Shown in pieces: positions 11,006 through 42,914 of a stretch of DNA of 64,000 nucleotides (positions are counted from its first letter, which is position 1; every line of letters begins with the position of its first letter). The notes beneath the pieces are model-generated. The model was not told where the DNA came from. It saw nothing but the letters and a program-made list of their open reading frames with translations, and searched no databases. This DNA is from Octopus vulgaris (lineage: Eukaryota), in assembly GCA_951406725.2 (NCBI GenBank), contig OX597816.1:70928001-70992000 (forward strand), given 5' to 3'. A program made the position numbers and the translations under genes.

Positions 11006-12074
11006 TATATAAGAAAAAAGGTTTGAAAATGCAATTTAAACGATGTTTATTTACTTAACCGGTTTCACTCTTTGGTAAAAGATTGTCAAAAGTTACATTT
11101 AAGGAAACATTGAATAATATGGGTTCAAAAAAAGTTTTTTACATAATTGTCACATTGAATATTATGCATTCAAAAAAGTTTTTTACATAATTGTCACATT
11201 GGATATTATGGGTTCAAAAAAGTTTTTTACATAATTGTCACATTGAATATTATGCATTCAAAAAAGTTTTTTTACATAATTGTCACATTGGATATTATGA
11301 ATTCAAAAATGTTTTTTTATACATAATTGTCACATTATTTGGGAAAATTAGGCAGAAAAGGATAAAACAAATATATTATTGGGAATTGGTTGCGTTAATT
11401 ATTGGTTGTCGCAAATTGTCACATGTATATATATACAATCTTTGGTATATATATACAGCGTTTTGACAGCAAAAATTAAAATGGATTTTTTGTACATCTC
11501 AGAATATTTTAAGTATGTTTTTACTGACCTGTCAGTCTGCTAATACTGACAGGTCAGTAAAAACATACTTAAAATATTCTGAGATGTACAAAAAATCCAT
11601 TTTAATTTTTGCTGTCAAAACGCTGTATATATATACCAAAGATTGTATATATATACATGTGACAATTTGCGACAACCAATAATTAACGCAACCAATTCCC
11701 AATAATATATTTGTTTTATCCTTTTCTGCCAAATTTTCCCAAATAATGTGACAATTATGTATAAAAAAACATTTTTGAATTCATAATATCCAATGTGACA
11801 ATTATGTAAAAAAACTTTTTTGAATGCATAATATTCAATGTGACAATTATGTAAAAAACTTTTTTGAACCCATAATATCCAATGTGACAATTATGTAAAA
11901 AACTTTTTTGAATGCATAATATTCAATGTGACAATTATGTAAAAAACTTTTTTGAACCCATATTATTCAATGTTTCCTTAAATGTAACTTTTGACAATCT
12001 TTTACCAAAGAGTGAAACCGGTTAAGTAAATAAACATCGTTTAAATTGCATTTTCAAACCTTTTTTCTTATATA
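11006..12074. repeat. ~1.07-kb near-perfect palindrome containing a ~43-bp tandem repeat
   Basis: Arms 11006-11536 and 11545-12074 with an 8-nt loop CTGCTAAT. The ORF track shows mirrored ORFs differing by one residue. About 5 copies of TTTACATAATTGTCACATTG.ATATTATG..TTCAAAAA per arm. Confidence 0.95.
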
Positions 12075-14014: not shown

Positions 14015-14212
14015 ATATAAATACAGTGTACATTTAAACACAGAAGAGGTAACCATCATAGGAAACGTGGTTTAATATGATGGTTACTTCTTATGTGTTT
14101 AAATGTACACTGTATTTATATGAATAATATATAGTCGACTGACTAATTTTTCTACACGCTAGGCCACTGGTAGTAAAAATTTCCAAAATTTTTTCTTACC
14201 CTGATATTATTA
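14015..14212 (+). mobile_element. Truncated fold-back copy related to the 42-kb HHR element family
   Basis: Inverted arms 14015-14060 and 14076-14121. ATACAGTGTACATTTAAACAC and GACTAA..ACACG.TAG.CCACTGG are shared with 42100-42175. Confidence 0.6.
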
Positions 14213-23295: not shown

Positions 23296-23401
23296 ACACA
23301 ATACAAATAAAAAGTCCAACGTTTTGGAGCGTAACTTTTGGCCCATCCTGTATTATATATTTTGGCTAGGGACCACTAGATTTTGGGGCTCTTTGTTTCT
23401 T

Positions 23402-24004
23402 ATTTCTTTATTAACCACAAGGGGCTAAAATCTTAGTGGGGAGAAACAAGGACAGGTAAAAAGGGATTAAATCGATTACATCGACCCCAGTGCGTAACTG
23501 GTACTTAATTTATCGACCCCGAAAAGATGAAAGGCAAAGTCAACCTCGGCGGAATTTGAACTCAGAACGTAGCGGCAGACGAAATACCTATTCCTTTACT
23601 ATCCACAAGGGGCTAAACACAGGGAGGACAAACAAGAACAGACAAATGGATTAAGTCGATTACATCGACCTCAGTGCGTAACTGGTACTTAATTTATCGA
23701 CCCCGAAAAGATGAAAGGCAAAAAAGTCAACCTCGGCGGAATTTGAACTCAGATCGTAACGGTAGACGAAATATCTATTTCTTTACTACCCACAAGGGGC
23801 TAAACACAGAGAGGACAAACAAGAACAGACAAATGGATTAAGTCGATTACATCGACCCCAGTGCGTAACTGGTGCTTAATTTATTGACCCCGAAAGTATG
23901 AAAGGCAAAGTAGACTTCGGCGGAATTTGAACTCAGAACGTAACGGCAGACGAAATACGGCTACGCATTTTGCCCGGCGTGCTAACCTTTCTGCCAGCTC
24001 GCCG
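23402..24004 (-). mobile_element. Head-to-tail trimer of SINE family B
   Basis: Three ~187-bp units starting near 23402, 23590 and 23777. Only the rightmost keeps the head (GGCGAGCTGGCAGAA). Confidence 0.9.
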
Positions 24005-36610: not shown

Positions 36611-36682
36611 TGCCAGCCATGAGACTCGAACTCACATTCCTGTGATAACGCGTCAAGTGCTTTACCATTAAGCTAAACTGTC
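36611..36682 (-). pseudogene. tRNA-like sequence (pseudogene or SINE head)
   Basis: GACAGTT TA GCTT aatggta AAGC..TGA cgcgtta TCA..GTGAG TTCGAGT CTCAT GGCTGGC A. D and T arms are good; acceptor and anticodon stems are mismatched. Confidence 0.55.
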
Positions 36683-42002: not shown

Positions 42003-42064
<62 letters not shown>

Positions 42065-42068
<4 letters not shown>

Positions 42069-42628
42069 CATATCAAGGGAAACTGAAATTTATTAAAATT
42101 TACATTTCCAGTGGTCTAACGTGTAAAAATTTAGTCCAAAAGACTATGTAAGATACAGTGTACATTTAAACACATGAGGAATCTACTCATAGGATTCAAC
42201 ACGCTAGAAAGAACAGCTAGGTTCTATAACCACAAAATTAGGGATAAAATTCGACAGGAATGAAATGAAAAATAAAAACATTTTACCATCTAGTTTCCTG
42301 GACCAATTGGTTTCTGATTTTAGTTTAGCGAGTAAATGAATAACATATGCACTCGCCAGGTGAAATCTTCTTCAGCAGGAACACCTAGGGTTAAACGTAT
42401 ACACACGAGGTGATCAAACTACGTGCCCCTTGCTTATACATGCTAACCTTTTCAAAATCTACTGCGCAGCCGCAGTCCTTCGCCAGCAATAAAAAATGCC
42501 AACTTTTAAAAACCGAAAATTATCCCAAAACTTACAATATTTAATCATTTCAAAGGGAAATGGAAATTTATTAAAATTTACATTTCCAGTGGTCTAACGT
42601 GTAAAAATTTAGTTCAAAAGACTATGTA
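42065..42628 (-). mobile_element. PLE/retrozyme-like non-coding element, ~478-bp monomer plus 86-bp terminal direct repeat
   Basis: 42065-42150 is repeated at 42542-42628. HHR inside; left end abuts (TA)n. Confidence 0.7.
42295..42381 (-). ncRNA. Type I hammerhead ribozyme motif
   Basis: TTCCTG CTGAAGA A GATTT..TGGCGAGT..ACTCGCTA..AAATC A GAAAC CAATTG GTC CAGGAA: perfect 6-bp stem I, GUC site, palindromic loop 3. Confidence 0.8.
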
Positions 42629-42844
42629 TTAGTCAAAGGACTGCGTCTGCGGAGTAGATTTTGAAAAAGTTAGGATGTATAGTTAGGATTAATAGGGTCA
42701 CTTTGCAATCACCTACTTTTGAATTCAGTGCTATTACATGGTACCCAGGGCAAGTGCCTTACACTGTAACTCCGCGTCAATGCTTTATGAGTGATTTTGG
42801 TAGACGAAAATTGAGGAAGTCACTCATACACATATACATACATA

Positions 42845-42914
<70 letters not shown>

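What the first reader, a model, noticed from the sequence alone, without database searches (positions are those of the whole stretch)
42065..42628. 1.2-mer element with one HHR per period: footprint of a circular or tandem RNA template
Seen: a ~478-bp period, an 86-bp terminal redundancy, and a clean HHR (GUC site, CAAUUG loop) in the middle of the unit rather than at its end. Established: retrozyme and PLE copies occur as partial tandems. Inference: reverse transcription ran more than once round an HHR-processed ~478-nt circle, or along a tandem transcript.
Basis: partly seen in the sequence, partly recalled or inferred. Interest (0 to 1): 0.75.

Follow-up and report, generated by a model that had tools for sequence, protein, structure and literature searches.

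The report
Hammerhead retrozyme with Penelope insertion marks
This is one ageing copy of a common 487-base non-coding jumping repeat that carries a hammerhead (self-cutting RNA) motif and sits in TA microsatellites, likely pasted there by a Penelope-type retrotransposon enzyme from an RNA that is likely a circle, a kind of element (retrozyme) already known from other animals.

Summary
The repeat and the hammerhead are real. The element is one of many dispersed copies (265 exact hits of one 22-mer). Copies are not randomly permuted: 81 of 90 end at one of two fixed sites, about +150 and +245 nt after the cut, then (TA)n, while 5' ends are truncated or inverted. In 37 of 37 classifiable head-to-head insertions, one arm ends at each site. 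These are Penelope-like (PLE) marks; the '1.2-mer' is one unit plus the PLE 'tail'. The two repeats inside an insertion share subfamily variants, so the template is re-copied, which favours a circle; no RNA data test this. No array of two full units and no sequence-related autonomous partner were found. The ribozyme shows covariation, including the core 3-8 pair, but has a mismatch at the base of helix II. Verdict: new member of a known kind (animal non-LTR retrozyme or non-autonomous PLE). The scan already reported this architecture on other DNA, including this genome.

The parts
42006..42066 (.). (TA)30 microsatellite, the insertion target at the element's 3' end
   Evidence: (TA)n-type runs follow nearly all family 3' ends
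42065..42635 (-). direct arm of the element: one unit plus tail, 571 nt, non-coding
   Evidence: longest stop-free stretch 55 aa and no PLE protein match in the window
42065..42150 (-). 3' copy of the terminal redundancy = 'tail' between the two preferred 3' end sites; 42065 is the major site (about +245 in family coordinates); 9-nt deletion at 42150/42151 lies in the minor site (about +150)
42295..42381 (-). type I hammerhead motif: helix I 42381-42376/42300-42295, core CUGAAGA 42375-42369, long helix II 42367-42316 with A.A mismatch at its base, GAAA 42314-42311, helix III with AAUU loop, predicted cut 42301/42300
42543..42635 (-). 5' copy of the terminal redundancy (end of the upstream partial unit)
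42636..42681 (+). 46-bp inverted piece joined to the 5' end; reverse complement of 42435-42480, 91% alike; reaches neither preferred end site
14019..14210 (.). second, short and decayed family copy in the window: head-to-head arms (14086-14210 plus, 14063-14019 minus) between (TA)n runs

Best explanation
The element is a dispersed, non-coding, hammerhead-bearing repeat of about 487 nt whose copies end at two fixed sites next to (TA)n, and it is likely a non-autonomous passenger of a Penelope-like retrotransposon, likely copied from a hammerhead-cut and re-ligated RNA circle. Shown: anatomy, copy ends, arm pairing, variants shared by the two repeats of an insertion, covariation of the ribozyme fold, intact PLEs in the genome. 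Inferred steps: (1) a rare copy with two hammerheads is transcribed, cut twice and ligated to a monomer circle; (2) a PLE RT/GIY-YIG protein cuts a (TA)n tract and primes reverse transcription inside the RNA at about +245 or +150 nt after the cut; (3) often both DNA ends prime, one at each site, giving head-to-head arms; (4) synthesis stops at random, usually under one unit, sometimes up to 1.8 units. The window copy started at the major site, ran one lap plus about 93 nt and ended with a short inversion.
For: 3' ends: 42 of 90 at +138..+168 and 39 of 90 at +241..+246, 9 elsewhere. 5' ends decay smoothly, 42 of 90 carry an adjacent inverted arm, and 34 of those 42 arms end at or near the same two sites (last count by hand). 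Head-to-head pairs with both arms auto-classified: 37 of 37 are major+minor (p 1.5e-11). This matches PLE anatomy: 5' truncation, partial tandem, inverted 5' copy, tail at one end, (TA)n bias (PMC8557442); two internal RT starts and extension of both target strands (PMC11167929). 51 of 65 arms that reach +10 cross the cut site by more than 10 nt, so the template is mostly uncut or re-ligated. The two repeats in one insertion disagree at only 11% of subfamily-polymorphic sites against 42% for random pairs, and share 19 variants seen in no other insertion against about 5 expected (51 insertions), while subfamilies differ by up to 26%: the unit is re-copied along the lineage. Ribozyme fold: 13 of 24 pairs show double-sided change, 0 of 500 shuffles as high; core 3-8 pair C-G 69, U-G 43, U-A 18, C-A 3 of 135. 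Copies with two cut sites in tandem exist (L153, L160, L168, L170, L178, L219). Intact 781-aa RT+GIY-YIG elements ending in (TA)n are in the genome.
Against: No RNA evidence: no listed holder is on record as RNA and only contigs were available. A circle has no end, yet no array of two full units was found (longest arm 858 nt of 191; no same-strand pair at unit spacing among 100+100 listed pattern hits), and arm lengths show no mark at one lap. Only 2 of 90 copies pass the upstream cut site. The oldest-looking subfamilies spread with a U3.G8 core, and helix II has a basal mismatch, so cutting may be weak; cleavage was dispensable for insertion by the anole PLE in vitro. A small excess of 5' ends at the cut (7 vs 2.0 expected within +-2 nt; post hoc window, and a similar excess at -40..-31) hints at some cut linear templates. 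No sequence link to any of 36 PLE loci. By eye, 2 of the 66 unclassified pairs (L097, L193) look minor+minor. The covariation controls do not remove relatedness.
Confidence: 0.58

Rival explanations
1. Same PLE machinery and the same two start sites, but the template is a linear, mostly uncleaved more-than-unit transcript; length and repeat identity are regenerated by a jump to a second RNA molecule or by re-initiation, and the hammerhead plays a side role.
For: Uncleaved RNA was the dominant substrate for the anole PLE. No arrays of 2 or more units. Weak-looking cores spread. 31 of 37 arm pairs overlap on the template by more than 20 nt, which two RNA molecules explain simply.
Against: Pure read-through cannot keep the two repeats matched while the lineage drifts by about 18% net, and 5' truncation would shorten sources each round, so an extra untested jump step is needed. 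No recurrent 5'-versus-3' repeat differences of the kind a fixed tandem master would leave (top site 9 vs 2, read as CpG decay).
Confidence: 0.32
2. A SINE-like passenger of a LINE (or other non-PLE) enzyme, with inversions made by ordinary twin priming.
For: 5' truncation and inversions also occur with LINEs (recalled). 8 of 42 inverted arms, and the window's own, end at internal points. No PLE partner identified by sequence.
Against: Two discrete internal 3' ends about 93 nt apart, partial tandems, arms that both end in (TA)n, template overlap of the arms and the one-of-each rule are not twin-priming features (recalled); the hammerhead has PLE-type traits.
Confidence: 0.07
3. A one-off local duplication, or a small LTR-type element with 86-bp LTRs.
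For: The single locus alone shows only an 86-bp direct repeat.
Against: 265 and 300 exact dispersed hits of two short patterns, variable 5' ends, hammerhead outside the repeats and of type I.
Confidence: 0.02

Closest known systems
Animal non-LTR retrozymes (Cervera & de la Pena 2020, PMC7229834, parts 2-4 of 6 read; Li, Clavereau & Pollet 2026, 10.64898/2026.07.22.740005, parts 1-3 of 5 read)
   Same: Non-coding AT-rich unit with one type I hammerhead, no LTR-like ends, PLEs in the same genome; circles and PLE mobilisation are the published model.
   Different: Unit of 487 nt is above the 170-400 nt of the 2020 paper (inside the 51-972 bp of the 2026 preprint). No true multimer arrays found here; copies are dispersed, under 2 units, with fixed 3' ends and head-to-head arms, which the parts read do not describe for retrozymes. 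Circles not shown here.
Endonuclease-positive Penelope-like elements and their non-autonomous derivatives (Craig et al. 2021, PMC8557442, 12 passages; Frangieh et al. 2024, PMC11167929, parts 1-2 of 4)
   Same: 5' truncation, partial tandem, adjacent inverted 5'-truncated copy, tail at one end, (TA)n targets, two internal start sites.
   Different: No ORF; the tail is about 93 nt rather than 30-40; no similarity found to the ends of the PLEs examined; the strict one-arm-per-site pairing is not stated in the passages read.
PLE-type hammerheads with palindromic helix III and U3-A8 core variants (Cervera & de la Pena 2014, PMC4209133, parts 1-2 of 4)
   Same: Extra nucleotide after A9, palindromic short helix III, U3-A8 variant, high variability within a genome.
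   Different: Helix II is much longer (5 + 9 bp with an internal loop), there is an extra A before G12, and C3-G8, U3.G8 and U3-A8 all occur inside one family.
Plant LTR retrozymes (as summarised in the two retrozyme papers above)
   Same: Non-coding, hammerhead-bearing, terminal direct repeat at this locus.
   Different: Type III hammerhead inside LTRs, PBS/PPT and 4-bp TSD there; here type I, outside the repeat, with variable 5' ends.

Membership tests
Type I hammerhead ribozyme | Core CUGANGA ... GAAA ... NUH with helices I, II, III, open at helix I | tested here: met
   window copy has C3-G8
Type I hammerhead ribozyme | Structure supported by covariation | tested here: met
   13 of 24 pairs with double-sided change in 40 hand-picked copies of 145; relatedness not removed
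Type I hammerhead ribozyme | G10.1-C11.1 pair directly next to G12 | tested here: not met
   an extra base on each side (C, A or U opposite A); A.A in the window copy
Type I hammerhead ribozyme | Match to an Rfam hammerhead model | tested here: not met
Type I hammerhead ribozyme | Self-cleavage | not testable with these tools
   needs in vitro transcription
Animal non-LTR retrozyme | One type I hammerhead per short non-coding, low-GC unit | tested here: met
   GC 0.29 in the 2-kb bin
Animal non-LTR retrozyme | Tandem copies with at least two hammerheads (the 'active' form) | tested here: inconclusive
   Not this copy; at least 6 loci hold two cut sites in tandem, but no array of 2 full units among 191 arms; genome searches score only 40 candidates
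Animal non-LTR retrozyme | Expressed as monomeric linear and circular RNA | not testable with these tools
   only contigs of runs guessed to be RNA
Non-autonomous Penelope-like element | 5' truncation, partial tandem and adjacent inverted 5' copy | tested here: met
Non-autonomous Penelope-like element | Two discrete 3' ends (optional tail) and microsatellite target | tested here: met
   81 of 90
Non-autonomous Penelope-like element | Autonomous RT+GIY-YIG element present in the genome | tested here: met
Non-autonomous Penelope-like element | Sequence similarity to the pLTR or 3' end of an autonomous partner | tested here: inconclusive
   none in 36 loci, most from one young family; one head-to-head junction with a PLE fragment among 202 flanks (L042), also explicable by a deletion
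Plant-type LTR retrozyme | Type III hammerhead inside fixed LTRs | tested here: not met
Plant-type LTR retrozyme | PBS, PPT and 4-bp TSD | not tested
   TSDs cannot be read in (TA)n; PBS/PPT not searched

The most novel reading that the evidence does not exclude
A PLE enzyme dimer holds both ends of a cut (TA)n tract and primes them at two fixed registers about 93 nt apart on one retrozyme circle, which explains the PLE tail, the inverted pLTR and the partial tandem in one step; the circle lineage hops so fast (about 6-7 times the host rate) that its ribozyme core drifts to U3.G8 and is repaired two ways (U3-A8, C3-G8), a genomic record of selection on an RNA replicon.
Probability: 0.25. Interest if true: 0.72.

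Novelty: new member of a known kind. Interest (0 to 1): 0.42.

Why it matters
As a family it is ordinary: another animal retrozyme. Its value is as a countable footprint for an open question, namely how PLEs make tails, inverted pLTRs and more-than-unit copies, and whether retrozyme circles are their templates. The one-arm-per-site rule and the matched repeats give exact predictions (start sites at about +150 and +245, a 487-nt circle) that the published in vitro PLE assay could test.

Tried and rejected
Rfam at gathering and at E<=10: no hammerhead; the MIR7533 hit only reflects the 46-bp inverted repeat. RNA: no RNA holder listed. Contigs of five runs guessed to be RNA hold pieces of the family; parts without cover and depth are not used. 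Two contigs that stop at 42300 looked like a cleavage mark, but 42300 is 30 nt from the polymorphic site 42330, so assembly branching explains it. Partner search: blastn and a profile of 31 copies against 36 GIY-YIG/PLE loci gave nothing significant. PLE ORF pieces near L027, L131 and L170 end in their own (TA)n and are separate insertions. Pile-up of arm lengths at one lap: not seen. Recurrent differences between 5' and 3' repeats, the mark of a fixed tandem master: not seen. A direct genome-wide count of unit-spaced hammerhead pairs was not obtained, so rare long arrays are not excluded. Coding capacity: none. Look-up of earlier findings by sequence: none. Literature: five searches; none listed a paper on this family. 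The words 'octopus' and 'cephalopod' in them were my guess at the host; earlier AI notes use the same words, but no data call names it. No supplements were read; those of the 2014, 2020 and 2021 papers, and Repbase or Dfam entries, may hold this family.

Full report
Observation. The window holds a direct repeat at 42065-42150 and 42543-42628, 478 apart. A type I hammerhead motif lies on the minus strand: helix I, CUGAAGA at 42375, a long helix II, GAAA, a 3-bp helix III inside the palindrome CCAAUUGG, and GUC with the predicted cut at 42301/42300. The element reads on the minus strand from 42635 to 42065 and ends in (TA)30. The window copy lacks 9 nt at the unit junction (compare the copies), so the family period is about 487 (median 482 over 60 self-matches). 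Rfam does not recognise the ribozyme, and the single-copy fold is unremarkable (z -1.39).

Family. The genome holds 265 exact copies of a hammerhead 22-mer and 300 of a downstream 25-mer, against 0 for reversed controls; a DNA search had 2117 candidates, of which 40 were scored. Contigs of runs from four coded organisms hold the family. From the first 100 listed of the 265 places I analysed 90 loci: two opposite-arm views were dropped, four paired places were taken once, and four places already held were left out. All 100 listed of the 300 places were analysed for 5' ends. The unit has no coding capacity.

Ends. Counting from the cut, 42 of 90 copies end at +138..+168 and 39 at +241..+246 (the reference stopped at +246, but (TA)n follows within a few bases). 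Six are cut short, two end in between and one runs on. 5' ends decay smoothly, about 18 of 90 exceed one period, and only 2 pass the upstream cut site. 42 of 90 carry an inverted arm at the 5' junction, and by my hand count 34 of these arms end at or near the same two sites, most of them beside (TA)n. Of 103 pairs, 66 had an unclassified arm; by eye many are also major+minor, two look minor+minor (L097, L193), none looked major+major, and a minority, like the window's, have a short internal inversion. In 31 of the 37 pairs the arms overlap on the template by more than 20 nt.

What this matches. Craig et al. (PMC8557442, passages) list 5' truncation, partial tandems, an adjacent inverted 5'-truncated copy, a tail often at one end only and (TA)n bias as PLE features. 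Frangieh et al. (PMC11167929, parts 1-2) show that a PLE protein cuts and extends both target strands, starts inside the RNA at two sites that bound the tail, and does not need hammerhead cleavage in vitro. The window's 1.2-mer is therefore one unit plus the tail, and the mid-unit hammerhead follows from where synthesis starts. The genome has intact 781-aa RT+GIY-YIG elements that end in (TA)n. None of 36 such loci resembles the unit. One locus among 202 flanks, L042, joins the element head-to-head to a PLE fragment with no microsatellite between, a weak hint that a deletion could also explain.

Circle or linear template. 51 of 65 arms that reach +10 cross the cut by more than 10 nt, so the template is mostly uncut or re-ligated. 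There is a small excess of ends at the cut (7 vs 2.0 within +-2 nt), from a post hoc window and matched by a similar excess at -40..-31. In 51 insertions with direct redundancy (9 of 60 self-matches dropped as not the unit or poorly aligned), the two repeats disagree at 11% of subfamily-polymorphic sites against 42% in random pairs. They share 19 variants seen nowhere else against about 5 expected, with no recurrent directional difference beyond a likely CpG site. Since subfamilies differ by up to 26%, each lineage must re-copy the same unit; a circle does this simply, as proposed by Cervera and de la Pena (PMC4209133; PMC7229834), but a jump between linear RNAs would too. Against a circle: no array reaches two units (longest 858 nt of 191 arms), lengths show no mark at one lap, copies with two hammerheads are rare, and no RNA data could test it. 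I put the circle at about 0.6 and the linear jump at about 0.3.

Ribozyme. In 40 hand-picked copies of 145, 13 of 24 pairs change on both sides, above all 500 shuffles and all slid controls, though relatedness is not removed. The core 3-8 pair is C-G in 69, U-G in 43, U-A in 18 and C-A in 3 of 135 (Fisher p 7e-5 without tree correction), and U3-A8 is a known PLE variant. The base of helix II is a mismatch in most copies. The tree is a ladder with similar end branches. Groups chosen by eye from it differ by about 0.18 net between the ends, while repeat-pair divergence suggests about 0.10 for the U3.G8 end (6 insertions) and 0.05 for the far C3-G8 end (3 insertions; rows that one search dropped are left out). 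That gives a source lineage changing roughly 6-7 times faster than its inserted copies. This is a rough inference from few rows, an unrooted tree and a sample anchored on a conserved motif. The window copy is in a younger C3-G8 group.

Verdict. A real, moderately old copy of a high-copy, non-autonomous hammerhead retroelement with full PLE insertion anatomy: a new member of the animal non-LTR retrozyme / non-autonomous PLE kind (10.64898/2026.07.22.740005, parts 1-3). Five paper searches listed nothing on this family or on the one-arm-per-site rule, but supplements and repeat databases were not seen. Earlier notes of this scan describe the same design on other DNA, including a ~490-nt unit in this genome that may be the same or a sister family; they are leads, not support.

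Noticed in passing
window 895 (-), 1230 (+), 41522 (+), 43919 (+), 48562 (-): Other hammerhead-like motifs with short helix II, apparently of unrelated repeat families; 895 and 1230 have the same core and helix II on opposite strands, pointing apart.
   Followed up: no
window 23401-23958: 187-bp unit in three tandem copies, 89% alike.
   Followed up: no
window 11107-11336 and 11745-11973: Two arrays of a 44-bp unit whose consensus units look reverse-complementary, like the ends of a fold-back element.
   Followed up: no
window 36611-36682 (-): tRNA-like match just over the Rfam cut-off, probably a SINE head.
   Followed up: no
window 42690-42850: 5' flank of the element is a fragment of another dispersed repeat (77% to a flank in L080), followed by (TA)30 at 42853-42912.
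   Followed up: partly
L091:1245-3590, L067, L085: Young intact PLE family (781-aa frame; RT, cysteine linker, GIY-YIG) with a U3-A8 minimal hammerhead-like motif shortly before its (TA)n end.
   Followed up: partly
L042:328-1770: Head-to-head composite of a 5'-truncated PLE (L077-like) and the 487-nt element, with short inverted pieces of both at the junction and (TA)n at both outer ends.
   Followed up: partly
L027, L131, L058 (oriented 1-1250): Another PLE family with a long simple-repeat 3' UTR and a UUGAAAA-core hammerhead-like motif, inserted in (TA)n tracts near the element.
   Followed up: partly
window 42305-42418, runs X1 and X16: One high-depth contig variant with an 11-nt shorter helix II and an opposite-strand joint occurs in runs of two coded organisms; perhaps one shared head-to-head insertion inside a host transcript.
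   Followed up: no
L078: GIY-YIG hit followed by a splice-like break that looks like an exon of a host nuclease gene rather than a PLE (identity recalled, not tested).
   Followed up: no
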